This document shows positions 13,262 through 34,100 of a stretch of 64,000 nucleotides of DNA, in pieces (positions within the stretch are counted from its first letter, which is position 1; each line of letters starts with the position of its first letter). Under the pieces are notes generated by a model, which saw only the letters and a program-made list of their open reading frames with translations, was not told where the DNA came from and did not search any database. The DNA is from Mytilus edulis (Eukaryota): contig NC_092344.1 of assembly GCF_963676685.1 (NCBI RefSeq), forward strand, positions 4,092,001 through 4,156,000, read 5' to 3'. Made by a program: the position numbers and the translations under genes.

Positions 13262-13787
13262 TTATAGTCTGAGTTCCTGACACAATATTTGCAATATCTA
13301 AAACCGTTCTATATATATACATATGAAGTGGAGACTGCGAAATCAAAAATATCTCTCTAGGATAAAGACAATTTTTCCTGTAAGAAGTATATGTTGAGAA
13401 AAAAGTATAAATACTCATGAGAGCAACCGGGTCATTTATAATTGTATTTGAGTATAGTTGATTGAATTGACATCAAGCGATATCCAATTATCTTTTCAAT
13501 TCTATAATTATCAGTTATCAATTATAAAAAAAAACCCATCGCCATGGCTAAAATGATCTAAGGAAAGACGAACAAGTCCATAAACATAACATAGTATAAT
13601 TAGAAAAAAAACTAGACAACACGAGCCCCACCTAAAAATCGGTGGTTAACATGGGTGCTCCTGGAGGGTTAGAAGTCCAAATATATCACCCTCTGTGCTG
13701 CTCGTGCGAAATTACAGATCCGGTGATAGATCAAAACCGACGGGAAAAGGTCCAGATTGTGGGTACGACAGTTGTCATCTGTGACAC

Positions 13788-14085
13788 TGTTAGGAATCTT
13801 CAACTCCTCTGACTTTACCTGTAACTCCGTTTGAATATAATGTAATTGAACTCCGTTAATTGTTTAATGACTCCTGTAATTGTATGTTTTCTTTGTTATT
13901 AACTCATTATAAAATCGTGCATCGGAGATAACGGAGATATATTTTACAAGAACATTGATAATATTAAGGAGATGTTAACAAATAATAAAATGCTGTAACA
14001 TGATACAAATGGATTATTAAAGGATATATTATTCACTTCAGTTTGTGTTTTATTCTAATGTTAGTGTAACGAATACTTCACAACA
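13788..14085 (+). repeat. 5' LTR (298 bp)
   Basis: tgttaggaatc...cttcacaaca. Differs from the 3' LTR by 3 substitutions and 2 small indel events. Confidence 0.97.
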
Positions 14086-14090
14086 TTAAA

Positions 14091-14108
14091 TGGTGCCGGA
14101 ACCCGGGA
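14091..14108 (+). promoter_or_regulatory. Primer binding site complementary to tRNA-Phe 3' end
   Basis: TGGTGCCGGAACCCGGGA versus TGGTGCCGAAACCCGGGA expected for eukaryotic tRNA-Phe(GAA), 1 mismatch; 5 bp after the LTR. Confidence 0.85.
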
Positions 14109-15283: not shown

Positions 15284-15402
15284 ATGCATTATTATATCTC
15301 ACTCTAATCTTATCATATAATCAATATTTCATTTCGGGCGCTTTGCGGCCTCATAAAATCTGAAATTATATTTCTAAGATTTTCGTGAGATATAATAATG
15401 CA
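15284..15402. repeat. DIRS internal complementary region (ICR)
   Basis: Its reverse complement reads right end (..cttagaaatat)-AAT-left end (ttcagatttt..), which is the circle junction. Confidence 0.95.
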
Positions 15403-15425
15403 CGTTTAATGCAAGCTTACCATTT

Positions 15426-16372
15426 CTAAAACTTTATCTGCAAAACCCGCTTTTTCATTAGTCCTAGTCTAGTGTTGGACCAATCTGCCATGGACATAAT
15501 ATCATCCATACTGATGCCACTCATCGCTGCCTTGCTAGTTGAGACCATGCGACAAGAATGTGCTTGAAACAATGAGATGTCGATTCCTGCCTCCTTCATA
15601 ACCCATTTAATCCAATTTACAACTGTCTGTGAAGATAGACCTTTAAAAGGTTTCTTAGTTGACCTTAATAAAGGATCAGGTTCATGTTTACTAACAGGCC
15701 TTAAATGTTCCGTTTTCAATTCATATTCATGTATACAAGAAATAACACATAATTTTTCTTTGAAAATTTGCAGTATTTCACTGATCTGTTATTGCAATCT
15801 TTTTGTGTTTTAAACAGACCCGGTAAATGAAAAATTATACTACTTTTGTTTCTGGACATGAATCTTCTGTCTAACCTTGAAATTTCAGATATCCTTTTAG
15901 GCGCTGCCAAGCCAATAAAATTGATAATGTTTACCTAAAACTGAAAAATCAAGTTTTTTGTTTATTGGTAAAGCGGATAAATATTTAAGAACAATATCCA
16001 AATCCCATGAAAATTTTAGTATTTTGGTAAAGGTGGGTTATTTTGTAGAACACCTTTCATTAATTGTTTTACTATAGGTTATTGACCAATTGGGACACCA
16101 TCGATATATGGCAGGACTGAAGATATGGCCGAACGGTGAACATTTAAAGTTCTGTATTGATACCCCTCTTTATACATCCAAGTCAAAAAATATAAGATAG
16201 CGGCCAAAGGTGCTGAAAAGGGATCAATTTCCCGTGAGTTACACCAGCTAGACCACTTATTCCAGGCACTGTCGTAAGAAGATCTTGTTCCCGATTTCCA
16301 AGATCCAAGGAGTAATTCTTTAGTTTCCTCTGAAATTCCAATTGCGTTAAATGATCTCCGGAGACCGTCCAC
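15426..16372 (-). pseudogene. DIRS tyrosine recombinase (frameshifted pieces 16079-16372, 15716-15910, 15426-15719)
   Basis: SW..GT..SY.SAW.KW..WC; YRTLNVHRSAIS; KRISEI (catalytic R); AHSCR (HxxR); MADWS. The Tyr-containing tail is not seen in frame. Confidence 0.9.
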
Positions 16373-18441
16373 TCTGCTTTAATGTTTAGTTCAGAATCAG
16401 TGAGTGTGGCTCTTTCATGGGAGACAATACAGTGTTGTGACTCATGGGAAGTAACACTGGATAATCTACTGACATTTGAAGTAACAGAGGGTACCAAGCC
16501 TGGGATTGCCAAACTAGAGTTATCAGAATTATCTGACTGTTTTCCTCCCGAACTTTCGCCAGACACGTACTTATTAGACAGAACGGGGGAAAAGCATAAC
16601 CCTTTATCCCTCTCCAGGATTGGAGAAGGGCATCTACCGCTTTCGCTTGGGGATCTGGCTTCCAGCTGAAATATTGATTCAGGTGAGTATTTGACCTGTC
16701 TGCAAACAGATTTACATTGCAAGGGCCTATGCGTTTCATGAGACTTTTGAAAAGTATCGGACTTAACCGCCAATTGCTGAAATCCGCATAATGCCTGCTT
16801 TCCCAGTCTGCTATAACATTGCTTTTTCCTGGGATGTAGTCCGCAGTGATTGTTAATTGCCTTTGAAGACACCAATCCCAAAACTGATTTGTTAGGGAAT
16901 TTAGTCTTTTTGACATCGTTCCCCCCATTTTTTTTACATATACAATTGCTGTTGTGTTGTCCATTTGTATAAGAATATGCTTGTTTTGTAGATTTTTGGC
17001 ATAAAATTGTACTGCGAACATTGCTGCTTTTAGTTCGAGTTGATTTATATGGAGGAATTTTTCCTCGTCTATCCAAAGCCCACCTATACTTATCTGTTGA
17101 CATGTTACTCCCCATCCCGACAGACTTGCATCCGACTGAATGGTTAAATGGGGTTCTGGTCTTAGTAACGCTTTCCCGTTCCAAGACCCCAGCTTGGTTA
17201 CCCACCAATGCAACTCGTTCTGAATTTCCTCGTTTAACTGGATTTGGTGATCGTAATGGCCCCCCAAATGCAGGGTTTTGTTTTCAATATTTGTAAACTG
17301 CGATAATGCAGAGGATCTGGAAGGACAGCTTGATTGGTTGCTGTAACTGACCTATCAACTGAGCTAAATCTCTTGCTGACACTTTCTTGTGTTTTAGCAT
17401 TAAATTTGAACTGTTCTTTATTTTCTCTACCTTCTTTTTCGGGAGAGACAAAGTCAACAACTTTGAGTTTACTGAATAACCCAGAAACTCCATTGTTTGT
17501 GAAGGTTCCATTACGGACTTGTTTGTATTGATCAGAAAACCTAAGCCCCTTAATATTGACAAAACTGTTGAGAGATCTGACAAAATTTTCTGATTTGACT
17601 GATTCATTATTAGAATATCGTCTAGGTAAACTATCAGACGTACACATAAACGTCTCAATAAAGTCATGGGTACCTTCATTAGTTTTGTGAATATTCTTGG
17701 GGCTACTGCAATCCCAAACGGGAGGGACCTGAATTCCATTATGTTTCCCTGCCAAAAAAATCTGAGGTATTTTCTGTGTTCTTTTGCTATTTGCAATGTC
17801 AAATATGCATCGGTTAGGTCTTTTTTTTACCATCCAACCGTTCTTCAAAGAAGATCTTTTAACAAATGAATTTCCTCCATTTTGAAATGTTCGTAACGTA
17901 AAAAAACATTTAGGCCTTTTAGATTTATAACAGGTCTTTGACCCCCTCCCTTCTTTGGTACCGGAAAAATGTTGCTTATGAACGAATCCTTTGTCAGGAA
18001 AGACTGTGTTATGGCCTTCTTGTTCAAAAGTCCTGTTATTTCTTTGTTTATCAAATCCTGATTCTCTTGATTGAAAAAGGCTTGATTTGGTATTTGATTT
18101 TGGTAAGGTGTTGCTAAGAAATCTAATTTTATTCCTTTTACACACTGGAGAACCCAAGGATCTTTTGTAATTGAGTTCCAATGCTGTAGGAAAAGACTTA
18201 CTCTTCCCCCTACAGGAATAGAATTTTGATTGATAATGCAATTCATTGGTAATTGGAAATAGTTTTGTATATGACTTAAAGTTTTCTCTTGACCTACCCG
18301 TTCTATCGATTTGCATGTTTCTTGAACACTTGGTTGTTCTGAGGTTGAGTCTGGATTTGGTTCTGGGTCTGGTTCTGGCGTTGATTCTGGCGCTGACCAT
18401 AACTGTTCCCCTGTCTGTTCTGTGACTGGTTTGCCTGCCAA
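16200..18441 (-). pseudogene. pol: DIRS pol: RT, RNase H and Dam-like methyltransferase (frameshifted)
   Basis: IFPVPKKGGGQRPVINLK; LPFGIAVAPRIFTK; IVYLDD; SDASLSGWG; HINQLEL; DNTTA; NVIADWESR; NLFA; YAFPPF. Confidence 0.93.
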
Positions 18442-19576
18442 GGTCTCTTCCCTGAAACTTGTGGATTGAGAGCTTGTCTGCCGCCCACAGACTGCAGGTT
18501 GTTTGTGGGCCCCTGCTGAAAAAACTGATCATTTTTTCTATTAAAATGAGGTTTACCAGCATGTTTTTTCTTGTTAGAAAACAACAACATTTCTCTAAGT
18601 TCTTTGTTATCCTTGTTGTCTGTAGCAAAAGACTTTAGAAATTTATTACCAAAAAGTTGACCCTTAGATTTTGCCAAAGCTTTCTTGCCTTTCTTCTCAA
18701 ATCTAGACTATCTGGCATTGTTTTAACTAACATTGCTTTTCTCCTGTCAGTGTTATAAACATAGTGAGCATTACCTGCTAGCACAATAGCCCTCTGTGTT
18801 AACTGAATTACATCAGAAGGGTCCATACCTTGATTATCTTTCTTAATCCTATGTGCTTCAGACCATATACGGGACAGAGGACCCATAACATCTAGAATGC
18901 GTAGCTGTGTGTTAATTTTACTTCTCTCTAATCTAGCATTCCATTTTCTACCTTGAAAATAATTTCTCTTAAAAAATCTATCTGTTTCAAGAGCCTTTAA
19001 TCCTTTAAACGAAGGAATAGGCCAATTCAAAGACATATCTTGTCTCGTCTTTTTACTTATACCCTTTAGAGCATACTTCTCTATATATTTGGTTACATGA
19101 GATGGTACGTTTTCTTTTTTATCTTTAGACAAAGAAGGTTCTGGGTCAAACGCTTCATTGTCTTCTGAACTCTCTGATTCAGAGTTACTAGAAGATGACT
19201 CACTGCTACTAGTATTTTCAGAGGAAATGCTAGAATGATTAACAACTTTCCTGTGTTTAATCTTACCTTTTCTGCTAGGTACGGAGTCGTCCCGTTTCCG
19301 TTTAGGGTTTTTGGTATCCAAGTCAGACCAGCTCTGTCTGACATCTTCTTCTGTCCCGTCGACTAACGACATTTCATCATCTTGAGGAGAAGAGATATTT
19401 CTCCTCGCCTTGTTAGAAGAGCCCAAAGACTCGACTACCTGATCAGTTTCTACCACCACTGCAGTAAAACTTACATTTTCACCAATGACCCTATGGTCTT
19501 CCGAATCAAGTGCACCGCTCTCTCGAGACGGTGGAGCCATCCCTAACGGAATGTCATTGAGTTGGGCGTTAGCCAT
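18303..19576 (-). pseudogene. gag: DIRS gag-like ORF1 (frameshift near 18660)
   Basis: ATG at 19576, just inside the ITR. QLRILDVMGPL..IW and QRAIVLAGNA..N..RRK motifs, then LFG..F and a Q/N-rich tail in ORF 18303-18677. Confidence 0.85.
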
Positions 19577-20935
19577 GCTAACTAAAATAATAAACCGAAT
19601 AACCTTTAAATAATTTGGAAAAAAACGTCTTTACTCAAAGAGAGCTAAATTGAAAGTCAATCTATTGTAGCCCGAGGTATACGATGTTACCTATGGGCAT
19701 GCGCAGTAAGGTATTACCTGGATTGTAACATTTTTTATTCAGAGGTGTACTTTAAAGAGCTGTTATTTGATTAGAATTGAAGGTCAATGCATTATTATAT
19801 CTCACGAAAATCTTAGAAATATAATGAAAGATATTATGCAAAGTCAAATAAAACAATAACATGAAATCTTTAAGAAACAGTCGATAAATGAAAAAGAAAA
19901 TTCTACCTGTTCTATAAAATTACCAAAATTAGATCTTCCTTGTTTAATGGTGATAAAATAAAGTGGATGGAGTTTTGGGATTCATTTCAAAGTCCCGTAC
20001 ATGCAAATACAAAGTTGACAGATATCGAGAAATTCAATTATGTTTGGAGCAAGCTACAAGGAGACGCTAAACGTGCAGTGTCTGGTTTAACTTTATCTAG
20101 TGATAATTATTCTTTGGCCATTAACATATTAGAGGAAAGATTTGGAAACAAACAAGATGTGATTGATATTCATTATAATCAATTAATAAATCTTCCAACG
20201 CCATCGAACATAATTTCTAGTTTGAGAGATTTTATGGATATATTTAACAGACATATTCGAGGTCTGGAAGTTTTGAAACAAGACGTGAACCAAGACGTGT
20301 TTGTATCAATTATCAGATCTAAACTACCCGAAGATGTGTTGCTTCAATTAGAAATTCAAAAAGGAGCTAAGGCGAAGTGGAAAATATCAAGTCTTTGTGA
20401 AAAATTACAAGATTAAGTTGTAGCAAGAGAAAATCTGATAAAACAGAAACGGAAAAGGATCGTTCAAACTCACAAGGGAGTTTTTTAATGTATCATTTAA
20501 TTCCCACAAGCCATGGCAGAATAAGAATGGAAAACAAAACGGAAATTGTAGAAGTGGAACACAAAATAGAAATATTAATTCAGCAGAAGCCTTAGTCGCT
20601 TCGACAGAACGAAATGTTAGTTATTTCGATAAGTGTAGATATTACCAGGAGCAACATTGGAGTGATGAATGTAAAAAATTTAAGAGTGTTGAAGATAGAA
20701 AGCGCAATTAAAAGGCTGTTGCTTTAAATGCCTGAGACATGGTCAAAAATCCATTGATTGCAAGAAAGGAAAAGTATGAGTTCATTGTGGCGAAAAGAAT
20801 TCGCATCACCGGAGCTTATGTCCAAAGAAATTCAAAATGAAAATGACAAGTGTACATTTATCAGAAGAAAACAGTCATAGTTCTATCGAAGAATTAAGAA
20901 GACAGAAAGAATTTCTGTAAATATGGAAAGTAATG

Positions 20936-23510
20936 CAGTCGGAAACCAGGTTGAAATAGAACAAAAGAATCGAAGCTCTCTATTAGAGAAGGCGATAAAT
21001 GTTTACTGTATTGTTTACTATAGTGACAATTTTTTAAAAAGTTAATAGAAACAAACAAAACTGCAATTTTCTTCTCAATTACGAGGTGTTTTATTTCAAA
21101 AACACCATTTGCGTAAGTTTTCAATTTATCTAGTACATAGTTAAGCAGAACAATTAGATATCAAGTCGACGACATGGGTGTCTTTCAAGTTGGATGACAA
21201 AAATGCATAACCTCCGATTTTTTTGAAAAAATTACCACGGACGGAAAAGATATCAATCTATTAGTTCAGTAATTTTCGTGTCTGCCCTTCCATTATGTGA
21301 CTGAAGAAAAAATTCCAAAAAATAGGTAACAATTGTATCGAAAAGAGAAAATCGAGTGCACCTTTTTATGTTAGGGCGTGTTTGAGTTGAGTATTTAGTC
21401 TTGATATCGTTCAAAGTAAGAATATTTCATACATCGTCTCGCTTCAGATTCTATCATTTTTATATATTAAAGCTACCGGTTGACTTTATAACCCAAAAAG
21501 TAACAGTTGTCAGAATTTTCTCAATTGAAGAAAGCTTTACCAAAAGAATGGATAAACATTTTAAGACAAGAAAATTCAAAGAAAACTCAAGTAAAAACAG
21601 ATTATGTTTTATTTATTAAGAGAAATTGTAATTATACAGAAACATTAGACAAGTTAGAAACCAAAAAAATTTATAACACATTCATTCAGAATGAGATTCA
21701 AATTCCTGTTGGTTTTAACCGATGGAAAACAGTGTTAAATATTGAGTATATTAAGAGTTCAGTCTGTAATATATTGAAATTTGTTCACCATTATTTGAAA
21801 GAAAATAGGTATAAAGTGTTTCGTTGGAAATTGTTACACTTTATTCTACCTTGTAAAACTTTATTAAAACAGTGGAATATCTGCAATACTTCAAATTGTA
21901 ATTTTTGCAATACCACTGAAGATTATGATCACATGTTTCTGAAATGTCATTTTCTTGATGACTTCTTTAGTAAAATTAAAAATCTTTTTGGAAAACTGAA
22001 TATTGATAATAATATTCTAACATTGAAAAATCTAGTATTTGGTTATAAAATTAATGATGAACAATATTATGAAATAAATTATTTGATTACATTAATAATG
22101 TTTTGTATATATAAAGCTTACTACATGTCTGAACAGAAAACAGAAGCTATAAATGTTTATGCTGTATTTAAAGCAGAATTTATGTATAGTTACAAATTAC
22201 AGGCAAAATGTAAGACTACACATTGTAATTGTTTCCTAGAAAAAGCTTTCAAATTGTTGAAATAATTTTTTGTTTGTTTGAGAAATATATGATCTAGCAA
22301 AAATAAATGAAAGAACTTAATTAAAGATATAAATTTTTAAAATTACATATCAGGAACTGATGAAGTAATATAAATTTTACTGTTCACCGCCACATTAAGA
22401 TTAATATCGAGGCTATTTATATCAATGTACCGTTACAAAAAGAAGATTTGAAAAAGAAACCAGTCTTACTCTTGATCTTCTTTACACTATTGATAAATTT
22501 TGATTTAGACATACCTGTTATAATGCTATATCACATCTGTTTGTTCTATTTTTAAAGTCGCATAAACCGGTGTGACAATTTTGTTTCAAACCAGGAAGTT
22601 ATTCGATAGACAAACAATGCACACGTTAACGGAGAAAATATGGAAAGTTTCCGGAAACTATACTCAAAAATCATTTATATTGCTAGATGATATCCAAATA
22701 GTATTTTTTCCTATTTATATGTATAGGTAAACAAATAAATCTCGCTGATATTTACTTGTTTATTATTTCATTGCTGATTATTTTATAACTTAGCTGTTAG
22801 ATTATAATACTAATGTTGATTTAATATATTGATGCTTACCAGAAAACAACCCTGGATTTCTGGTATTAACAAACAGGGACTCTTCACTGGTATGCTGGAC
22901 TGGTGAGGTATATTGTTAACAGCAGAAAGTGCAATTTGTTGTTGAATAAAAAAAAAAAAAAAAAAAATAACAGTACTAAAAGATGAAATATATGGGTCAA
23001 GTGAAATACCTATCTAATGAGTCACAAAAACAGGGAAGGTGTGTTCGAATAGCTATTTTTTTACTGAAAGTACTTGACGACAGTCTTACAAGTTGGATGA
23101 TGAAAATGCATATCTTCGAAAAATTCTAATTTTTTGTGTGTGATAACAAGGGTTTATAGTCTTCAACCACTAAAAAAATCTAGTCTGCCCTTCCACGAAA
23201 TATTTAATTAGATTTTTTTTAAATGTTTATGATTTTTCGAAAATTCCACCTAACAACCGATTAGACAATAGTTTTAAGTTGAATCAATGCAGACAAGATC
23301 ATTAACTGATGCTCATTAGCTAGTTGATACATTTGTCTTTTAAAATATAACTGACATATAAGGATCGTATTGGTGCAATGTGGATAAATTTATCGGTTTC
23401 AAAGAGCAAAATTGGTAGCGCGTCATCGCTACAATGGCTTCCATTTTTACGATTGTGAAAATGAACTGGCGTCATGGGGAGATAATTTTGACGAAGTAGG
23501 ATCCTGACTG
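20936..23510. mobile_element. Non-autonomous TIR element with 5-bp TSD (hAT5-like), containing a LINE insertion
   Basis: TAATG-cagtcggaaacc ... ggatcctgactg-TAATG (TIR 9/12). Removing it restores the BEL frame RISVNMESNEDPTENMLVSS. Confidence 0.7.
21508..22967 (+). mobile_element. 5'-truncated L1/Tx1-type LINE with ORF2 C-terminus, 3' UTR and poly(A)
   Basis: Open 252-aa frame with zf-RVT-type CNFCNTTEDYDHMFLKC. AATAAA runs into a 20-nt A tail. 7-bp TSD TAACAGT at 21501-07 and 22968-74. Confidence 0.9.
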
Positions 23511-26500
23511 TAATGAAGACCCTACAGAGAATATGTTAGTTTCATCAAATGGTACTTATGCAAACAGCAAAAACAGATGTGGTCAATCCAAAGAATAAGG
23601 AAAAGGTGGAGACAGGAATTTTGTTTGACTCAGGATCACAAAGAACTTATACTTCTCAAAGTCTTGCATCAAAGCTGAATCTGAAAGGAGACAAAGAAGA
23701 AGAATTGAAACTTGTTACGTTTGGAAGTGAGAAACCTAAAATTGTGAAAACATCATCGACGAATCTTTCGATCAAATTGAATAACGGGAAGAATTTCAAC
23801 CTTGTAGCGAACATTGTGCCAGTGATTAGTCGATGTGTACATATGAAAAGTCTAGATGCTTCAGCAATGGAATATTTAAAACACTTTGTGAAAGAAGTTG
23901 AACTGGCAGATGAATTACCATTTCAGAATGAATCATCGTCCATTGAACTTTTAATTGGAAATGACCATTACCTTGATTTGATTCTTTCGAACAAAGTAGA
24001 AATTCGACCAGGATTATATCTTCTAGCTTCAAAACTTGGATGGATTGTAACTGGTAGGACTCGTGAAACATATGAAGAGAAATCAGAGACTGGTTTGCTT
24101 ATTCTTTCCAACACTAGCTCCTTCGAAATATCGGACATTGAAAACCCAGATCAGTCGATTGTTGTCCAAGCAGGTATATGTGATTTATGGAACCTTGAGT
24201 CGATAGGGATTATTGAAAATATGGAGACATCTAGTGACAAGAAAGCTATGGAATATTTCAAAGAAACTTTAAAATTCAAAAATGGAAGATACTATGTTAA
24301 ATGGCCATGGAAGGAAAATACGCCAGAACTTCCGGACAATCGTGAACTAGCTCCTGGTAGATTGAAGTCATGTGTAGCTCGTATGAGAAAGAAACCTGAC
24401 CTATTAACAAAGTATGACACTATCATACAAGATCAGATACAGAAAGGTATTGTTGAAGAGGTGAATGAGTTTAGGACTGATGGAAAACATTATATACCCC
24501 GTCATGCAGTGATAACCCCTATCATCATTAGTGGTAAAATGTTTGTACAAGATCTATGGAAAAGAAATTTGCAATGGGACGATGAACTGTCTACAGAAGA
24601 CCTTTCAAAATGGATTAACATCAGTACTGAGCTAGAACGAGTCTCTGAGGTTTTCATTTCTAGATGTGTGTATTTGCATTCAGACTTAAATGATAAAACA
24701 TGCAAACTTCTGTATTTCTGTGATGCATCTGCCAGAGCTTATTCAGCAGCGGTTTATTCACATCAAACTTGTGGACAATCATCTAGAAGTGATCTCATCT
24801 TTTCGAAGTCTAGATTAGCACCAGTGAAGGAGATGAGTATTCCCCGACTGGAACTTATGGCCGTCTTGATTGGTGTTAGGAGTTTAATATTTGTGAAAAG
24901 TGAATTAAATATTTCCATTGAGGAAATGTACTTATGGAGTGATTCTCAGTGCGTTCTCAAGTGGATTTCTACTAAGAAAGAACTAAATGTGTTCGTGAAA
25001 AGTAGGATAGCTGAAATCAAAGCGCACAAGGATGTCAAAATCATGTATGTCAATACAATGGAGAATCCAGTTGATGTAGCTACAAGAGGAACTACAGCTT
25101 CTAAACTTAAAAATGATAGTCTTTGGTGACATGGCCCCAAATGGTTAAATTATGATACACAGAATTGGAAAAATGATTCTTTTGGAGACAATTCGTCTGT
25201 GGAAAAAATGTATCAATCTGAGATAAAACGTGAAAAGAGTAGATATAGTACCTTACTTTGTAATCAGATCGAGGAAGAAAACACCACCTTTTGGCATAGA
25301 CTGCAGAGAGTTTTCGTCTTACACAAAAGTAATACGTGTAACTGCCTGGATCCAAAGATTTGTTTCAAGGATGAAAAAAGACAAATGCAGTACTGGAAAA
25401 GTGTTAACATACAAAGAATTGAAAGTTGCCGAAATGAATTGGAAAAAATATATTCAAAGGAAACATTACTTAGATGTTTTGAAGCAATAAACGAGCACAA
25501 AAGAAATAATCTACAAAGACAGATTGGGTTGTTCATTTTTCAAGATGGAATTCCGTGTTGTAGAGGAAGACTGGAATATGGAGATATTTCTGAATCTGCT
25601 AGACTACCTATTCTTCTTCCCCGTGTGGAGGAACTCACGCGGTTTTTCATTGAAAAGATTTATAAGGAACAACTTCATTGTGGTGTGTCACAGACCTTGA
25701 GCAAAGTCAGGCACGGGTTTTGGATACCACAAGGCAGATCAACTGTGAGATAAGTTCTGAGACACTGTTTGATTTGTCATAAGCATGAAGGAGGTCCTTA
25801 TCGAATGCCTGATATGCCTCCGTTTCCAAAATCAAGGGTTTCACAGTCAACTCATTTTTCTTCAACTGGCTTAGATTATTTAGGACTCTTGATTACAAAG
25901 TCAAACGGTGACAACAGCAAAAGGTAGATTTGCCTTTTTACATGTTAAGTTACACGAGCAATACACTTAGAGGTTATCAATGATATGACTACAGAGGAAT
26001 TCATATATGCATTTCGAAGGTTTATCTCGGCAAGAGGTACCCCGAGTACAATAATAAGTGATAATGCAACTCAATTCAAATTAGGAAGTGAAACATTAAA
26101 GTCAGTATGGAATCATGTGATAAAAAGTGAAGATGTTCAAAATTTCACCATGAATAAAGGATTATGTTGGAAATTCATTACAGAATTAGCTCCCTGGATG
26201 GGAGATTTTTATGAAAGGTTAGTCGGAGTTGTGAAACGTTCTCTTAGAAAATCTTTGAATAAAAGACTCATAACTGATGTACAGATGAGAACTATTATTA
26301 AGGAAATCGAAGCTGTTGTAAATTCCAGACCATTGATTTACGTAGGAGAAGACATCAATTCTAAAATAACGTTGACACCAAGTCATTCTTTAACGTTGAA
26401 TCCAACCACTGGGATACCAGACGTTGATTTCGATCTTGACGATCAAGATTATTCACCTTTAGAAAGTTCAAAGGAGAAGTTATTAAAAGCTTGGAAAAAA

Positions 26501-26914
26501 GTACAAAAACTCTTAGATTCATTCTGGAATTTATGGAGAAACGAATACTTACTCAGTTTAAGAGAAAGAACGCAAACAAAGTTGAAGAGTTGCAGAGTCG
26601 AGTCATCATTTCTACCACAAATTGGAGATGTTGTGCTTATAAAAGACAATTTACCCAGATCAACATGGAGAATGGGAAAAATAGTGAAACTTATATCAAG
26701 TAATGATGGTGAAATTAGGAGTGCAAAAGTACAAGCGTCTACTGGACTAATATCAGGAAGACCATTAAATCTTCTTTATCCTCTAGAATTGGATTGTCAT
26801 ACTGAAAATAAGGAAGTTAAGAAATTTGACAAAGATCAAGTTTCAATTGCTAGACCTAAACGATTAAGTGCAGAAAATTCAAAAAAGAAAATTAAATCGA
26901 TATTAAAGCAATAA
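23511..26914 (+). pseudogene. pol: BEL pol: protease, Pao RNase H, integrase; RT deleted
   Basis: LFDSGSQRTY; FCDAS.RAYSA; KSRLAP..SIPRLEL; WSDSQ; NPVDVATRG; H.GVSQT..FWIPQGRS..C..C; GLDYLG; SDNATQF; APWMGDFYERLV; RPLNLLYPLE. Confidence 0.93.
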
Positions 26915-27130
26915 GTACTCAATTCTGAGATGGATTTCTTGGATTTCGTATTATGTGTTTGATTCGTAATTTTCATTTAGAATGAACGTGTTATGTTTAT
27001 CATTATTACATAATATGATAACAAATTGGAATAATATTATTATAACTGATTGAATTGTGTTTGAAAAGTTTTTCAAGTTTACCTGTGTATTACTATTGTT
27101 TAAATTTACCTGTATTGAACTGTGTAGTTC

Positions 27131-27177
27131 AACGGAGCCTTTAAGTATTCAACGGAGCATTTAAATGTTTAACGGAG
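27131..27177 (+). promoter_or_regulatory. Three AACGGAG motifs at exact 20-bp period, putative internal promoter/enhancer
   Basis: aacggag at 27131, 27151 and 27171. TATA-like tatatat at ~27228. The same heptamer occurs 3-4 times in each LTR. Confidence 0.5.
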
Positions 27178-27246
27178 TCGTTCCCGCTCGTGTACGTGCA
27201 ACTCGTGCACTGTTGTTATTTAGATAGTATATATTGAGTCTTCCCA

Positions 27247-27975
27247 ATGAAGTTTTATCAGTTTGAAATCAAAAGAAAGATGGCATACAAATGTGAATTC
27301 TGTCCAAAGATATATAAATATAGGAAAAATATGTTGAGACACGTTAAAGAAAAACATGCTAAAACATATGAATATTGGAACTGTCCAGAAGCAGGATGCA
27401 GCACACAGTTTATACGTAGAGAATATCTGTTTCGTCATCTCATAAATACGCACAAGATGGAGGAAAGTACAGCAAGAGTTAAGGCTATCAACTCTTCCAG
27501 AGGCGATACTCATCGGGAAAGCTACTATTCTGACGTGAGTGATGATGACACCATTCTGGACTTACTGGATGATTTTAGTAAAGTGGACGATACTGGTAAT
27601 CATTTTGATGTTGATGATTTTTTATCCACAGTAGACGAAAACAATAATATAGAAGACAAATGTGATGATGATTCTATAAATTCAGAGATGGTAGACATCC
27701 AAGATGATTCTATAAGTTTAGAGATGGTAGACAACCAGAGCGAAAGTGATGATATTATTATAATAAGTGATGTTGAAGAAAATACAAAAAACAGAATAGA
27801 ACATTTTATTGGGTCGACAAAAGAACAAACTGTAATTTTAACTTTTAAAAGAACCATTATTACTGTAAGTGGATGTGAATATGTTATGAATAGGGACTTT
27901 ATATGGGATTGTTATGAAGAGACAATTAGAGCACTTTCTTTGGTCGGGAGTGTTAGGAATCTCCAACTCCTCTGA
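27247..27975 (+). CDS. Accessory ORF of the BEL element: two C2H2 zinc fingers and an acidic region
   Basis: YKCEFCPKIYKYRKNMLRHVKEKH and WNCPEAGCSTQFIRREYLFRHLINTH, followed by a D/E-rich middle. The likely start is the second ATG (27280). The frame runs into the 3' LTR. Confidence 0.8.
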   Translation: MKFYQFEIKRKMAYKCEFCPKIYKYRKNMLRHVKEKHAKTYEYWNCPEAGCSTQFIRREYLFRHLINTHKMEESTARVKAINSSRGDTHRESYYSDVSDDDTILDLLDDFSKVDDTGNHFDVDDFLSTVDENNNIEDKCDDDSINSEMVDIQDDSISLEMVDNQSESDDIIIISDVEENTKNRIEHFIGSTKEQTVILTFKRTIITVSGCEYVMNRDFIWDCYEETIRALSLVGSVRNLQLL

Positions 27976-28252
27976 CTTTACCTGTAACTCCGTTTGAATA
28001 TAATGTAATTTAACTCCGTTAATTGTTTAATGACTCCTGTAATTGTATGTTTTCTTTGTTATTAACTCATTATAAAATCGTGCAACGGAGATAACGGAGA
28101 TATATTTTATATATAAACAAGAACATTGATAATATTAAGGAGATGTTAACAAATAATAAAATGCTGTAACATGATACAAATGGATTATTAAAGGATATAT
28201 TATTATAGTTTGTGTTTTATTCTAATGTTAGTGTAACGAATACTTCACAACA
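27951..28252 (+). repeat. 3' LTR (302 bp)
   Basis: Preceded by a short PPT-like ggtcgggag and followed by the TSD GACAC. Confidence 0.97.
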
Positions 28253-29859
28253 GACACAGATATTTCATAAATAAACCATACGCGTCCTGTCGGACCATAT
28301 GATTATTAAACTCGTTTGGTTATCAACGGTCCAGACCATATCAGTATTTAGACCATATGGGTATGTTTTCGGATGAAATTAAGCTTCCTTCACAGGATAC
28401 ACAGATCATTTTTTGAACCGACTACGGCAAAAGTAGTTAACTGAATGTCTCAATATTGTCTTCGACTAGTAGACTTAATTAAAAGAGTCTTGCTGCTGTC
28501 GACCACCCGTCCGTAGAGCCACATTTCTTCTTATATCTTCATATTTCAATTTATTGCACGTAATTTTGCTCCTGAGTATACGATCTTACTGTTATTGTAT
28601 TCTAATTTTATTGAAATTTTGATTTAATAAAAACTAATTTAAACAACAAAGTAATTGAAAAAAACAAGAGAACTGCGAGCTACGGCTCACTTATGATACC
28701 CTCGCCCAAATATTTCGGTAAACAGGAAATTGTCAAGAGATGTATCTGAAAACGCGCCACAAGGTAAGGCTGATAAATATAAACCCTGAAACCAAATTTC
28801 GAAAATTCTTGTATTGTAGTCCCTACGAAAAAGGTGACGAAAATTTCAACTTGGCTTTCATGTGTTAGATGAAACAAGTGCTCGTTAAGCAGGAAGTTGT
28901 TGAGTGGTGAATCTAAAAATGCATCACACGGTATAGCTGACTTATATAAACCCTGAAACAAAATTTCAGAAATCCGTGTCATGTAGTTCGTTAGTAAAAT
29001 GCGACGAAAACAACGATAATCTTAAGCTTATGATTGAATAAGTCAAATTTCATTTTTAGACAATCTTTAAGTTACGCCACACCTATTTGACATTCATCAT
29101 CATGCAGTAAATAATCGGACTATACGAGAAAATACACACAAAGTCATGACCATACGCGTATGGTCCAAATACTTATATGTCTGAAATGTCTACATTGTAC
29201 AAAGCTGCATAGGAACATAATATTTAAGATAATAGTTTCAGTTTTGATCCATTTTGAAACTCTAAGTACTAAATATTTTACAACCTACGTGCACTAAAAC
29301 TTAATGAATATAGCCCACACACTAATACGTTGTTTTGCAATATGGTTCTCAAAAATCTTTATATAATCTATCAAAACAGATGTCTTTAGGAATACAAAGA
29401 TTTGACATTACTTAAAGCACTAATGACAGCCGTGGGATTCTACATTCACTTCTTAAAAAATGGAATGATTTATTACGAATATTGTTACTTTTTTTTTCTC
29501 GAAGCATTCAAATTCGTATCTATTTTGAAATGCCATGGTAAACCACGTGAAAATATATGAGGAAATTCTGTATTTAGTAATTCATTTCATAAGAACAGAT
29601 TAATAACACGTCTGTATCCTATATTTAATGATGGCCTTGAGACACGAAATTCTTTGATTTCTCAACGTCAAAGTAAACAGACCTAATTTAATGTCAATAT
29701 CAACTGACTTTATTTCATTGTCAATATCAACATCATCTTATTTCGACGTAAATATTAATACAAATTTTTTGATAATTTAATGTAGTTTAAATGGGATAAA
29801 CAACCACGAAATATAACGATTTTCAATGTCTATGTAAGCCGATCGTATTACAACGCCAA

Positions 29860-32800
29860 TTTAAACAGACCTTATTACAACGTCAGTATCAATAAACCTT
29901 ATTAAAATCTCCGTATCAATGGACTTTTTTACAACATCAATATGAAACAGACCTTAATACAACGTCAGTATCAATTGACTTCATTACAACGTCAATATCA
30001 ACAGACCTTATTACAACGTCAATATCAACATACCTTATTACAAGGTCAATATCAAACATACCCGATTTGTTGGTCACTATCAACAGACATTAATACAATG
30101 TCAATATCAATAGACCTTATTACTACGTCAATATCAACAGACCTTATTACAACGTCAATATCAATTATACCCGATTTTAACGCCACTATAAAAAAAAAAG
30201 TAAAGAAAAAAAATACTGAATTCCGATGAAAATTCAAAACGAAAATTTCCTAATAAAATGGCAAAATCAAATAATAAAACACATCAAACGAATGGACAAC
30301 AACTGTCATATTCCTGAATTGGTACAGGCATTCACATGTAGAAAATGGTGGATTGGAACCTCTCCTTGTATGACAGTCACATCAAATTCCATTATATTTA
30401 CAAGATGCCTGAACAAAACAGACCTTATTACAACGTTAACATCAACAAATATAAAGTAAGAAGATGTGGTATGATTGCCAATGAGACAAACTTTATTACA
30501 CCGTCAATATCAACAGACATTATTACAACGTCAATGTCAATGGAGCTTATGATAAACGTAAATATCAACAAAACTTATTCGAACGTCAATATCAACAGAC
30601 CTTATTACAACGTCAATATCAAACAGACCTTATAACAATGTCAATATAAACAAACCTTATTACAACGTCAATATCAATGTACCTTATTACAACGTCCATA
30701 TCAATAGACCTTATTACTACGTCAATATTAATGGACTGTATTACAAAGTCAATATCAATGGACCTTATAACAACGTCAACATCAATGGACCTTATTCCAA
30801 GGTCAATATCAAACAGACCTTATTACAACGTCAATATCAAACAGATCTTATTACAACGTCAATATAAACAAACCTTATTACAACGTCAATATCAACAAAC
30901 TTTATTTCAACGTCAATATCAATAGACCTTATTACAACGTCAATATCAAACAGACCTTATTACAACGTCAATATAAACAAACCTTATTACAACGTCAATA
31001 TCAACAAACTTTATTTCAACGTCAATATCAATAGACCTTATTACAACGTCAATATCAAACAGACCTGATTACAACGTCAATATCAATGGACCTTATTACA
31101 ACGTCAATATCAACAGAACTTATTACAGCATCGATATTTATCTATACTTTTTTACAACGTCAATATCAAACAGACCTTATTACAACGTCAATATCAACAA
31201 ACCTTATTTCAAAGTCAATATCAATAGACCTTATTACAATGTCAATATTAACGGACCTGATTACAACGTCAATATCAAACAGACTTTATAACAGCGTCAA
31301 TATCAACAGAACATATTACTAGGTCAATATCAAGAGACCTTATTACAACGTCAGTATTATACAGACCTTATTACAACGTCAATATCAACAGACCTTATAA
31401 CAAGGTCAATATCAAAACGAACCTTTTAACAACGTCAAGATAAACAAACCTTATTACAACGTCAATATCATTGTACCTTATTACAACGTCAATATCAATA
31501 GACCTTATTACAACGTCAATATTAACAGACCTTATAACAACGTCAATATCAATGGACCTTATTACAACGTCAATATAAACAAACCTTATTACAACGTCAA
31601 TATCAACAGACCTTATTACAACGTCAATATCAAACAGACCTTTTAACAACGTCAAGATAAACAAACCTAATAACAACGTCAATATCATTGTACCTTATAA
31701 CAACGTCGATATCAATGGACCTTATTACAACGTCAATATTAACGAACCTTATAACAACGTCAATATCAATGGACCTTATTACAACGTCAATATCAACAGA
31801 CCTTAAAACAGCTTAAATATCAACAGACCTTATTACAACATCAATATCAACAAACATTATTACAACGTCAATATCAACAGACCTTATTACAACGTAAATA
31901 TCAACAGACCTTATTACAGCTTCAATATCAACAAACCTTATTACAGTTTCAATATCAACAAACTTTATTACAACGTCAATATCAAACAGACCTTATTACA
32001 ACGTCATTATAAACAAACCTTATTACAACGTCAATATCAAGACCAAATGACAACGTCAACATCAACAGACCTTATTACATATCAAACAGACCTTATTACA
32101 ACATCAATATCAATGAACCTTAATACAACATCAATATCAACAGACCTCATTACAACGTCAATATCAACATACCTTATTACAACGTCAATATCAATCAAAC
32201 CTTATTACAACGTCAATTTCAATGGATCTTATTCCAAGGTCAATATCAAACAGACCTTATTACAACGTCAATATCAAACAGACCTTATTACAACGTCAAT
32301 ATCAAACAGACTTTATTACAACGTCAATATAAACAAACCTAATTACAACGTCAATATCAACAAACCTTATTACAACGTCAATATCAAACAGACCTTAGTA
32401 CAACGGCAATATCAACAGACATTATTCCAAGGTCAATATCAACAGACCTTATTGCAAGGTCACTATCAAAAAGACCTTATTACAACGTCAATATCAAACA
32501 GACCTTATTACAACGTCAATATAAACAAACCTTATTACATCAATATAAACAAACCTTATTACAACGTCAATATAAACAAACCTTATTACAACGTCAATAT
32601 CAAACAGACCGTATTACAACGTCAATATAAACAAACCTTATTACAACGTCAATATAAACAAAACTTATCACAACGTCAATAAAAACTAGTGTTGTCAAAT
32701 AGTACACGTTTGCCTAACCGGTTACTCGTATAATCGTTCGACCGATTAACCGGTTAACCGGTAGTTGAAGGCCTTATCAATAATATACCCTTCAATTAGA

Positions 32801-34100
32801 TATAAGAAGATGTGGTATGAGTGTCAATGTGACTACCTTCCATCCAAGTCATACAGTTACGTTTTTATAATACGATGAATTGGAGTTTGTCCTTTGGTAT
32901 AATAAGGCTTGACTGTGAAGATTCCTATCGAAGTTTGACTTTTAATAATCAAATACACGGTATAAACTATGGCGTTTGTACAACTTCAGATTGAAAAATA
33001 AAATATACGTCTTGATCTCGTACGTAGAATTGAAAATGTCTGAAACCGATGATTCTTTGCTTTCTCTAGTTGTCTCCGAAAATAATGTGGAGTTTAATTT
33101 AAATTGATTAATCCTGATATTCGTACCATCAAGTATACATTAATTACATTCACGTTGCCTTTTTACAGTTTTTGAGTTAGCTTTTCGTTAATTGACAAAG
33201 ACTTGCACGACGGAGATTGCACATTTAAGATGTAGGTCTACACAATATTAGATCAAAAATGAAATAAGGAAGTAAATCGTAAAATTTATTCGTATTACTA
33301 ATTGAAAGTTATTGTTAAAAAAACATGTAACTAATTATGTTTTCTTAAGATCTTGCCCCGAGCTAAGAGATAAGTTCTAATTAATTCTATATTTTTGGAT
33401 TAACAATAGCAATCAATATTCTGGACAATTGATCGGTCAAATTAATTTCCACGGCGACAATTTTTAGAGAAAACATAACTATTTAATGTTTCAATACAAA
33501 TTTATATCAAATTTATTAAAATTGAAAAAAAGTTCGGTTAACCGGTTAGCGTTTTTAGTATTCGGTATTCGGTCGTTCGAACGGTTAACCGGTTAACCGG
33601 TTAATCGTTGACAACACTAATAAAAACAAACCTTATTACAACATCAATATCAACAAACCTTATTACAACGTCAATATAAACAAACCTTATTACAACGTCA
33701 ATAAAAACAAACCTTATTACAACGTCAATAAAAACAAACCTTATTACAACGTCAATATAAACAAACCTTATTACAACGTCAATATCAACATACCTTATTA
33801 CAACGTCAATATCAATCAAACCTTATTACAACGTCAATAAAAACAAACCTTATTACAACATCAATAACAACAGACATTATCACAACGTCAATATCAACAA
33901 ACCTTATGACAACGTCAATATCAAACAGATCTTAGTACAACGGCAATATCAACAAACATTATAACAACGTAAATATCAAACAGACCTTATTACAACGTCA
34001 ATATCAATAATCGTAATCCAAGGTCGATATCAACATCTTTTTACAACGTGTATATCAACAGACATTATTATAACGTCAATGTCAACAAACCTTATTAGAA
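29860..34100. repeat. Minisatellite array, 27-28-bp unit (acagaccttattacaacgtcaatatca)
   Basis: Roughly 100 degenerate tandem copies, interrupted at ~30175-30490 and 32687-33619. Confidence 0.97.
32687..33619. mobile_element. Non-autonomous hAT element inside the minisatellite
   Basis: TIR tagtgttgtcaa/ttgacaacacta, 8-bp TSD ATAAAAAC, subterminal AACCG/CGGTT arrays. Confidence 0.92.

What the first reader, a model, noticed from the sequence alone, without database searches (positions are those of the whole stretch)
27040..27975. BEL/Pao element carries a transcription-factor-like accessory gene with a phased motif array shared with its LTRs
Seen: between the integrase and the 3' LTR, where env would sit, is an uninterrupted ORF with two C2H2 fingers and a long acidic region. 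About 100-150 bp upstream of the likely ATG (27280) are three AACGGAG heptamers at exact 20-bp spacing (27131, 27151, 27171), two TTTACCTG motifs and a TATA-like box. Each LTR has the same heptamer (two inverted CTCCGTT plus one or two AACGGAG) and TTTACCTG. Established: BEL elements normally encode gag-pol, sometimes env; C2H2 plus acidic domain is an activator-like layout; YAACGG also fits the Myb consensus. Inference: an internal promoter drives a transactivator or silencing antagonist that could act on both promoters, analogous to the foamy-virus Tas internal-promoter circuit. Alternatively a host Myb factor could control both. ORF openness alone is weak evidence, because pol also keeps long open stretches.
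Basis: partly seen in the sequence, partly recalled or inferred. Interest (0 to 1): 0.8.

Follow-up and report, generated by a model that had tools for sequence, protein, structure and literature searches.

The report
Mussel retrotransposon's own zinc-finger regulator gene
A group of jumping genes in mussels carries an extra, long-conserved gene for a small DNA-binding protein, together with clusters of a short DNA signal in its own promoters, which suggests these elements make their own on-switch much as complex retroviruses do; the binding itself has not been tested.

Summary
The ORF (27280-27975) is a real accessory gene of a BEL/Pao lineage in a mussel, not a chance open frame. Four diverged families in this genome (35-41% identity) carry it between integrase and 3' LTR under purifying selection. 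It belongs to a family of 167 clusters with only generic C2H2 annotation. Members share two C2H2 fingers, a conserved acidic motif, a SUMO-interaction-like motif and a C-terminal hairpin. A GGAG-core array, a CGTGC box and a TATA-like box sit at similar distances upstream in five of six families; the array recurs in five LTR types and is absent from 40 other BEL loci. The conserved finger residues predict GGA. Corrections: the 20-bp spacing is not conserved, the core fits Myb poorly, and the closest sister insertions deleted the gene but kept the array. The same module occurs in Gypsy elements, where 2 of 6 families have GGAG arrays and 3 have a different motif. Best reading (0.5): an element-encoded, trans-acting activator or anti-silencer of its own LTR and internal promoter. 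Binding, transcription start and activation are untested.

The parts
13783..13787 (+). 5' target-site duplication GACAC
13788..14085 (+). 5' LTR, TG...CA; U3 holds TTTACCTG 13814, CTCCGTT 13825/13851, AACGGAG 13930 (the second site reads ATCGGAG)
14086..14103 (+). primer-binding-site-like stretch (TGG after the LTR)
   Evidence: identity as PBS is inferred from position
15313..19764 (-). nested DIRS-like retroelement (RT, RNase H, Dam-like domain); boundaries approximate; not part of the circuit
   Evidence: (D18)
19892..20416 (+). gag fragment, DUF1759
   Evidence: E=5e-34
21504..22265 (+). nested LINE-like 3' fragment (zf-RVT)
   Evidence: E=3e-7
23540..25129 (+). protease (DUF1758) joined to RNase H region (Peptidase_A17); about 0.7 kb of RT region missing at 24519/24520 relative to sisters
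25130..26914 (+). integrase, interrupted by stops; H2C2, rve, DUF5641
27078..27177 (+). upstream array: TTTACCTG x2 (27078, 27105) and AACGGAG x3 (27131, 27151, 27171)
27195..27209 (+).
27228..27234 (+). TATA-like box TATATAT, 32 bp before the A of the Inr-like site
27258..27263 (+). initiator-like TCAGTT; predicted start at 27260 (Inr consensus recalled, start not shown)
27280..27975 (+). accessory ORF, 231 aa; stop inside the 3' LTR
27292..27453 (+). two C2H2 fingers (aa 5-26, 35-58); finger 1 Y-1/K2/N3/R6, finger 2 R-1/E2/Y3/R6; followed by a conserved helix
   Evidence: (pLDDT 89-98 over residues 1-70)
27523..27567 (+). conserved acidic-hydrophobic motif (aa 82-96, YYSDVSDDDTILDLL), activation-domain-like (inference)
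   Evidence: S87 48/50, D89 47/50, D94 44/50
27748..27780 (+). SUMO-interacting-motif-like DDIIIISDVEE (aa 157-167)
   Evidence: I160 39/50, I162 38/50, S163 36/50; consensus from PMC8616421 passages
27817..27927 (+). conserved C-terminal two-stranded beta-hairpin (aa 180-216), function unknown
   Evidence: (pLDDT 79-90)
27939..27950 (+). polypurine-tract-like stretch before the 3' LTR, overlapping the ORF end
27951..28252 (+). 3' LTR; U3 holds 8 GGAG-core sites in the first 200 bp, including CTCCGTT 27988/28014 and AACGGAG 28084/28093 just before a TATA box at 28108
28253..28257 (+). 3' target-site duplication GACAC

Best explanation
One lineage of bivalve BEL/Pao retrotransposons encodes its own sequence-specific transcription regulator. 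SHOWN: a separate gene 3' of pol, conserved under selection, with two C2H2 fingers, an acidic-hydrophobic motif, a SIM-like motif and a beta-hairpin; upstream of it a GGAG array, a CGTGC box, a TATA-like and an Inr-like site; GGAG arrays also in LTR U3. INFERRED: a host factor at the CGTGC box gives basal transcription from the internal promoter. The protein then binds the GGAG-core sites (finger 2 Arg-1 to G, finger 1 Arg6 to G and Asn3 to A). Because two fingers read only about 6 bp, specificity comes from site density. It activates, or protects from silencing, both its own promoter (positive feedback) and the LTR that makes gag-pol RNA, using the acidic motif and possibly SUMO contacts. It works in trans, so copies that deleted the gene but kept the arrays could still move.
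For: Selection: between families A-D, pS 0.64-0.82 (saturated) against pN 0.29-0.50; integrase pN 0.25-0.29. Linkage: of 21 BEL-type places in G000, 9 have integrase upstream, 15 a family LTR downstream, 6 neither; integrase lies upstream in 5 of 7 other-host contigs. Motif: GGAG exceeds shuffles in U3 of 5 of 5 BEL families and upstream in A, B, E; CGGAG upstream in A-D. Control: 0 of 40 other BEL loci have the gene, and 0 of 40 an array (one single site); CGGAG is 0 in 26 control LTRs (6,424 bp) against 12 in five ZF-family LTRs (1,379 bp). Fingers: among 51 two-finger proteins, finger 1 (not in the search query) has N3 48/51 and R6 49/51; finger 2 has R-1 51/51 and a variable position 6. 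These read GGA by the code in PMC3668361. The model matches DNA-binding two-finger folds (CTCF Z 7.1; Tramtrack Z 6.6, rmsd 1.6 over 57). Promoter layout is positionally conserved in A-E. Two Gypsy families with the homologous module also carry CGGAG arrays (L119 U3 6 vs 0.2; L124 upstream 5 vs 0.5). A gene-less derivative is found at two independent insertions with all 21 array bases unchanged, against 85% identity in adjacent DNA.
Against: No binding, start site or activation is shown. The same paper's code gives Tyr3 to A and Tyr-1 to T, predicting NAGGAT; the observed ACGGAG misses both. A random 7-mer holds GGA on one strand roughly 10-15% of the time (my arithmetic, no call). Three of six Gypsy families (L052, L054, L120) with N3/R6 and R-1/E2/Y3 have GGGC arrays and no CGGAG in U3; L054 has the same four-position residues as L119. 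For L122 the predicted GGGG is not enriched (5 vs 6.9). Among BEL elements, gene and motif share one clade (quick tree), so 0 of 40 reflects about one gain and one loss, and many controls are near-copies. Family F lacks CGGAG and a TATA at the expected place. In family A only the window copy has an open frame. The RNA-like contigs that cover the ORF carry a frameshift at 27349. In three of six Gypsy families the module is in frame with pol, which also fits an integration role. Acidic and SIM motifs do not tell activation from repression.
Confidence: 0.5

Rival explanations
1. The arrays are sites for a host factor (Myb-like, Ovo-like, or another GGAG/GGA reader) that drives both promoters in the germ line. 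The accessory protein is real but targets something else, such as host genes or chromatin.
For: 14 of 48 GGAG sites fit YAACGG and 10 fit TAACGG (consensus motifs recalled). The CGTGC box shows that conserved host-type sites exist here. Gene-less derivatives keep the array. Gypsy relatives with near-identical fingers use another motif.
Against: 34 of 48 sites break the Myb consensus, and the family D LTR has 0 Myb sites but 4 CGGAG. The nearest ZF-less BEL lineage (13 rows) has no array. Paired AACGGAG is not more common genome-wide than its reversed control (379 vs 604).
Confidence: 0.22
2. The protein binds its own GGAG arrays but represses: the SIM recruits SUMO-dependent co-repressors, giving self-limiting copy control or latency.
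For: A SIM-like motif sits about 55-60 aa from the C-terminus (strict pattern in 15 of 29 rows tested, 1.2 expected). SIMs recruit SetDB1/Wde in transposon silencing (10.1101/533091 passages). The lineage has few copies in G000 (15 LTR matches for family A, a lower bound).
Against: The most conserved non-finger motif is acidic-hydrophobic, typical of activators (recalled). Activators and viral anti-silencers also carry SIMs (PMC3174244, search listing only). Derivatives that lost the gene are not more numerous than gene-bearing ones.
Confidence: 0.13
3. The module works after transcription: tethering the integration complex or LTR ends, or handling genomic RNA as CERV does for Cer1. The arrays would be its docking sites on cDNA or RNA, or unrelated.
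For: It is in frame with the integrase C-terminus in Gypsy L052, L054 and L119. Cer1 encodes an accessory RNA-export factor (PMC10309623 abstract). Sites also lie at the outer U3 end.
Against: In BEL and in Gypsy L122 and L124 it is a separate ORF with its own ATG, and the in-frame Gypsy forms keep a Met just before finger 1. U3 arrays occur in both orientations and cluster before the TATA box, as for a double-stranded DNA promoter element.
Confidence: 0.12
4. A captured host gene fragment riding along neutrally, with arrays produced by tandem duplication.
For: Most copies are broken; arrays lie in tandem repeats in family B; pairs with L008 have pN above pS.
Against: Synonymous sites are saturated while amino acids are conserved across four families. 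167 clusters share the layout. No TE-free intact host copy was seen among 21 places.
Confidence: 0.03

Closest known systems
Foamy virus Tas (Bel-1) with internal promoter
   Same: An accessory transactivator gene just 5' of the 3' LTR, made from an internal promoter and acting on both that promoter and the LTR (PMC8003144 passages). The layout here matches.
   Different: No sequence or fold likeness found (Pfam gives only generic C2H2 families; BFVD nothing at E<=0.001). The host element is an env-less BEL/Pao retrotransposon. Function here is inferred.
VANC anti-silencing proteins of Arabidopsis VANDAL transposons
   Same: A TE-encoded protein that binds a short motif accumulated in non-coding tandem arrays specific to its own family, with density giving specificity (PMC5735166 passages). 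Here the arrays are family-restricted and tandem-built (39-bp unit in family B).
   Different: VANDALs are plant Mutator-like DNA transposons and VANC is not a C2H2 protein (recalled). VANC motifs diverge between families, whereas the GGAG core and finger residues stay constant across BEL families. No demethylation evidence here.
CERV of C. elegans Cer1
   Same: A nuclear accessory regulator encoded by an invertebrate LTR retrotransposon (PMC10309623 abstract).
   Different: CERV comes from a spliced mRNA and exports RNA; no C2H2 pair or promoter array is described in the abstract.
Two-finger C2H2 transcription factors (Tramtrack, PDB 2drp; CTCF finger pairs)
   Same: Same fold over residues 1-59 (Z 6.6, rmsd 1.6 over 57); sequence hit E=4e-4.
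   Different: No BTB domain or TGEKP linker, and it is element-encoded. Z below 8 shows only the common finger fold, not kinship.
env-bearing BEL/Pao elements
   Same: An extra ORF between integrase and 3' LTR (recalled, e.g. nematode Tas/Cer7 and roo).
   Different: The ORF here is a soluble finger protein with no env family hit.

Membership tests
BEL/Pao LTR retrotransposon (Belpaoviridae) | LTRs with TG...CA ends and short target-site duplication | tested here: met
   13788-14085 / 27951-28252, GACAC duplication
BEL/Pao LTR retrotransposon (Belpaoviridae) | gag (DUF1759) - protease (DUF1758) - RT - RNase H (Peptidase_A17) - integrase with DUF5641, in this order | tested here: met
   RT region deleted in this copy but present as about 0.7 kb extra in sisters
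BEL/Pao named clade (Sailor, Tas, Suzu, Sinbad etc.) | RT/RNase H phylogeny with reference elements | not tested
   no reference sequences were available from the tools; the tree holds only G000 and metagenome rows
env gene | fusion glycoprotein family match or membrane-protein layout | tested here: not met
   only C2H2-type families recur across 50 members; model is fingers, disordered acidic linker and hairpin; no TM predictor was run
Classical C2H2 DNA-binding protein | C-x2-4-C-x12-H-x3-5-H fingers with beta-beta-alpha fold | tested here: met
Classical C2H2 DNA-binding protein | conserved base-contact residues at -1, 3, 6 | tested here: met
   finger 1 N3 48/51, R6 49/51; finger 2 R-1 51/51 (finger 2 helix was part of the query, so biased)
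Classical C2H2 DNA-binding protein | sequence-specific DNA binding | not testable with these tools
   needs EMSA or SELEX
Foamy-virus Tas circuit | regulator gene just upstream of the 3' LTR | tested here: met
Foamy-virus Tas circuit | internal promoter producing a separate transcript | tested here: inconclusive
   conserved CGTGC/TATA/Inr-like layout; RNA-guess contigs cover the ORF but not integrase, cannot show a start
Foamy-virus Tas circuit | homology to Tas/Bel-1 | tested here: not met
   no such Pfam family at E<=0.01 in 50 members
Foamy-virus Tas circuit | transactivation of LTR and internal promoter | not testable with these tools
   needs reporter assays
VANC-type anti-silencing system | dense short-motif arrays in non-coding DNA, restricted to the encoding TE group | tested here: met
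   phylogenetically about one event
VANC-type anti-silencing system | action in trans on copies lacking the gene | tested here: inconclusive
   gene-less derivative at two independent insertions keeps the array; dependence not shown
VANC-type anti-silencing system | VANC protein homology, Mutator-like host element | tested here: not met
   only zinc-finger families recur; LTR element
SUMO-interacting motif | hXhh/hhXh core followed by Ser and acidic residues | tested here: met
   against the consensus in PMC8616421; the paper warns many predicted SIMs are false
SUMO-interacting motif | binds SUMO | not tested
   no SUMO partner was folded or assayed
Myb binding site | YAAC(G/T)G conserved across sites (consensus recalled) | tested here: not met
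   14 of 48 sites; 0 in the family D LTR

The most novel reading that the evidence does not exclude
Bivalve LTR retrotransposons of two superfamilies (BEL/Pao and Gypsy) share a mobile, element-encoded two-finger transcription factor that binds motif arrays in their own LTR and internal promoter. It forms a foamy-virus-like autoregulatory loop and uses a SIM to engage or disarm SUMO-dependent silencing. That would be an animal counterpart of the plant VANC system and a reversal of the usual picture in which C2H2 fingers are the host's weapon against retroelements.
Probability: 0.4. Interest if true: 0.88.

Novelty: new variant of a known kind. Interest (0 to 1): 0.76.

Why it matters
BEL/Pao elements are treated as simple gag-pol(-env) retrotransposons. 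A conserved, self-encoded DNA-binding regulator with matching promoter arrays would show that complex-retrovirus-style control evolved in invertebrate retrotransposons, using the protein class best known for silencing them. The system is compact (a 75-aa finger domain, a 6-bp site, a 300-bp LTR), so how an animal LTR element switches itself on or escapes silencing becomes testable by binding and reporter assays. It also explains a family of at least 167 protein clusters with only generic annotation; the closest ones are filed as hypothetical mussel genes.

Tried and rejected
Exact 20-bp phasing as a functional feature: rejected, spacing varies. Myb as family-wide reader: disfavoured. TTTACCTG as a universal second site: present upstream in A, B, D only and in 1 of 5 LTRs. 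Finger-code covariation across Gypsy families: mixed, 2 of 6 concordant, 3 discordant, 1 not significant. Tetramer of the C-terminal hairpin: no verdict. RNA: no RNA holder listed; X21 gave 6 partial reads and X24 none, so no test of start site or strand. IMG/VR scan: 18 pattern matches, none confirmed. Prokaryote genome scan did not run. Fold searches gave nothing at E<=0.001; the wide search was filled by finger domains, so the hairpin is barely tested. ESM Atlas: only generic C2H2 or hypothetical clusters, low recognition. Earlier scan notes: nothing. The Tramtrack site AGGAT could not be confirmed in print (searches gave only a primer); it is recalled and not used as evidence. The Ovo motif was not found in PMC10473757 passages. 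Host range: 20 clusters looked up; 19 had no named member and one had members filed under a clam-symbiont MAG. ARAGORN found no tRNA in L032. The careful tree did not finish; the quick tree was used, with 4 short rows dropped (L065, L117, L084, L085).

Full report
1. Observation. The window holds a BEL/Pao element with LTRs at 13788-14085 and 27951-28252 and a GACAC target duplication, with BEL-type gag, protease, RNase H and integrase domains. It is a defective copy: nested DIRS-like and LINE-like pieces, about 0.7 kb of RT region missing relative to sisters and 4 stops in the RH-IN alignment. Three AACGGAG in 260 bp compare with 0.02 expected. The closest named homologues are Mytilus galloprovincialis (96%) and M. 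edulis proteins, so the host is a Mytilus mussel (inference).

2. The gene is real and belongs to the element. A search of G000 gave 43 matches (150 of 189 candidates scored). I grouped them into 21 BEL-type places; the weaker rest included Gypsy-linked copies. Of the 21, 9 have BEL integrase upstream, 15 a family LTR downstream and 6 neither. They fall into four families, A-D, 35-41% identical to the window protein. Between families synonymous sites are saturated (pS 0.64-0.82) while pN is 0.37-0.50 for the whole ORF and 0.29-0.39 for the first 95 codons; integrase gives pN 0.25-0.29. Corrected dN/dS is about 0.2-0.46 and rough, because dS is saturated. Within family C, pairs without L008 give pN below pS, pairs with L008 above it, on small counts. 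A profile starting at the finger 2 helix found 167 clusters at E<=0.001 among 1.84 billion representatives. Eight metagenome loci were confirmed; one equals family B, and 5 of the other 7 have BEL integrase upstream, all with broken ORFs. Their host is unknown.

3. Protein anatomy. With 50 aligned members the model has two confident fingers plus a helix (pLDDT 89-98, residues 1-70), a disordered acidic middle and a long C-terminal hairpin (79-90). Best structural matches are CTCF (Z 7.1) and Tramtrack (Z 6.6, rmsd 1.6 over 57), modest scores for a common fold. The last fits the SIM consensus (PMC8616421, passages); a strict pattern hit 15 of 29 rows that passed the script's filter, 1.2 expected, and did not hit the window protein itself. 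Of 152 proteins, 51 show both fingers; finger 1, which was not in the query, has Asn3 in 48 and Arg6 in 49, and finger 2 has Arg-1 in 51 and a variable position 6. By PMC3668361 (section 9 and passages) these read G-G-A. The same source assigns Tyr3 to A and Tyr-1 to T, which the observed ACGGAG does not match.

4. The DNA motif. The conserved core is (C)GGAG, not the Myb-like AACGG: 14 of 48 GGAG sites in six upstream regions and five LTRs fit YAACGG (sites were picked on GGAG, and the consensus is recalled). GGAG exceeds shuffles in U3 of 5 of 5 BEL families; CGGAG does so upstream in A-D, GGAG in E. In A-E a CGTGC box lies 76-89 bp and a TATA-like box 34-68 bp before the ATG, with Inr-like sites near -20; in the window TATA to Inr is 32 bp. 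F has GGAG sites and the CGTGC box but no CGGAG or TATA there. Spacing is 20, 22/20, 21/20, 39 or 38/37 bp. As control I took 40 of the 150 BEL integrase matches listed: none has the gene or an array, and 26 of them with clear LTRs hold 0 CGGAG in 6,424 bp against 12 in 1,379 bp. The quick integrase tree (49 rows, 4 dropped as short) puts gene-bearing rows in one 24-row clade with a 13-row gene-less subclade, so this is about one gain and one loss, not 40 tests. Paired AACGGAG is rare genome-wide (379, reversed control 604).

5. Sister copies. L031, L032 and L033/34 (92-95% DNA identity) lack window-equivalent 27184-27767, that is TATA, ATG, fingers and acidic region, but keep 3-4 AACGGAG. L031 and L033/34 share flanks and are one duplicated insertion; L032 is independent. 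The derivative therefore moved after losing the gene. All 21 array bases match the window while adjacent DNA is 85% and the ORF remnant 80.5% identical. This fits a trans-acting protein with a cis docking array, but also a host factor and a dispensable gene. L035 and L038 carry broken ORFs.

6. Gypsy relatives. A homologous module (hhalign 98.9% and 98.0% over the finger region) follows integrase in Gypsy elements of G000. It is in frame with pol in L052, L054 and L119, and separate in L122 and L124, with a Met shortly before finger 1 in all. L119 has six CTCCG before its LTR TATA box (6 vs 0.2) and L124 five CGGAG upstream (5 vs 0.5, in coding DNA) plus three GGAG sites in its LTR seen by eye. 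L052, L054 and L120, with nearly the same contact residues, have GGGC arrays instead, and L122 does not show the GGGG its fingers predict. This is the main evidence against simple read-out. In L119 the 7-bp repeat contains both motifs, so its match may be incidental.

7. Expression. Contigs of two runs guessed to be RNA cover 27160-28106 and 27244-28121 with zero depth over 25901-27100. That is what a separate short transcript would give, but contigs cannot show starts, and both carry a frameshift at 27349. One contig continues at its 5' side with sequence matching about 23581-23605 (my comparison), a GT-AG-compatible joint or an AG-microhomology deletion; it is unexplained.

8. Mechanism. Best reading (0.5): an element-encoded activator or anti-silencer that binds GGAG arrays in the LTR and in its own internal promoter and works in trans. 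Rivals: host factor on the arrays (0.22), self-repressor through SUMO (0.13), integration or RNA role (0.12), passenger (0.03). Shown: gene, selection, linkage, motif enrichment, promoter-like layout. Inferred: binding, transcription start, direction of effect.

9. Known systems and novelty. It works like foamy-virus Tas (PMC8003144, passages) and plant VANC (PMC5735166, passages) but is a member of neither. SUMO in transposon silencing: 10.1101/533091, passages. CERV: PMC10309623, abstract and outline. Six literature searches (listings only) showed no description of this gene. The mollusc LTR survey PMC6238403 has no occurrence of 'zinc' or 'ORF' in its main text, and PMC2836005 passages do not describe it. 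Supplements were not read, and Repbase and subscription journals could not be searched, so a prior note there is possible. Verdict: new variant of a known kind, interest 0.76.

Noticed in passing
window 15313-19764 (- strand): Nested DIRS-like element with RT, RNase H and a Dam-like methyltransferase domain, flanked by 51-nt repeats.
   Followed up: no
window 29684-33900: Long 27-bp tandem satellite with strong negative GC skew.
   Followed up: no
L032 983-1954: Mini unit LTR - about 320 bp with a tRNA-like stretch and a different primer site - LTR, in tandem before the full element; ARAGORN calls no tRNA. Resembles a TRIM-type derivative.
   Followed up: partly
L052, L054, L119, L120, L122, L124: Gypsy elements carry the homologous finger/acidic/hairpin module after integrase, fused or separate, each with a motif array before the LTR TATA box (GCCCTA, CTCCGGG, GCCCA, CGGGC/CGGTA).
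   Followed up: partly
L126 about 1500-2000: A Gypsy accessory ORF ends in a stretch that looks like a KCTD-type BTB domain (recognised by eye from recall); L125, L127, L130 and L131 carry other finger-bearing accessory ORFs. The Gypsy clade seems to hold a varied accessory-gene set.
   Followed up: no
L094 downstream of integrase: About 2.4 kb of 52-bp-period tandem repeat containing CAGGTAA in a BEL element without the finger gene.
   Followed up: no
window about 23605 joined to about 27158 (run X1, one contig, depth 3.3): GT-AG-compatible joint that skips pol and lands in the motif array: splice or microhomology deletion.
   Followed up: partly
cluster of P0031 (P0158, P0159): Family members are annotated in a Candidatus Thiodiazotropha taylori MAG on a 7.2-kb contig; probably host clam retrotransposon contamination (inference).
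   Followed up: no
L035 1453-1845: The acidic part of the broken ORF has expanded as a 54-bp tandem repeat; runs X1 and X4 show a 36-nt duplication in the same region.
   Followed up: no
G000 contig C11: Many of the finger-gene matches, BEL and Gypsy, lie on this one contig; possibly repeat clusters.
   Followed up: no
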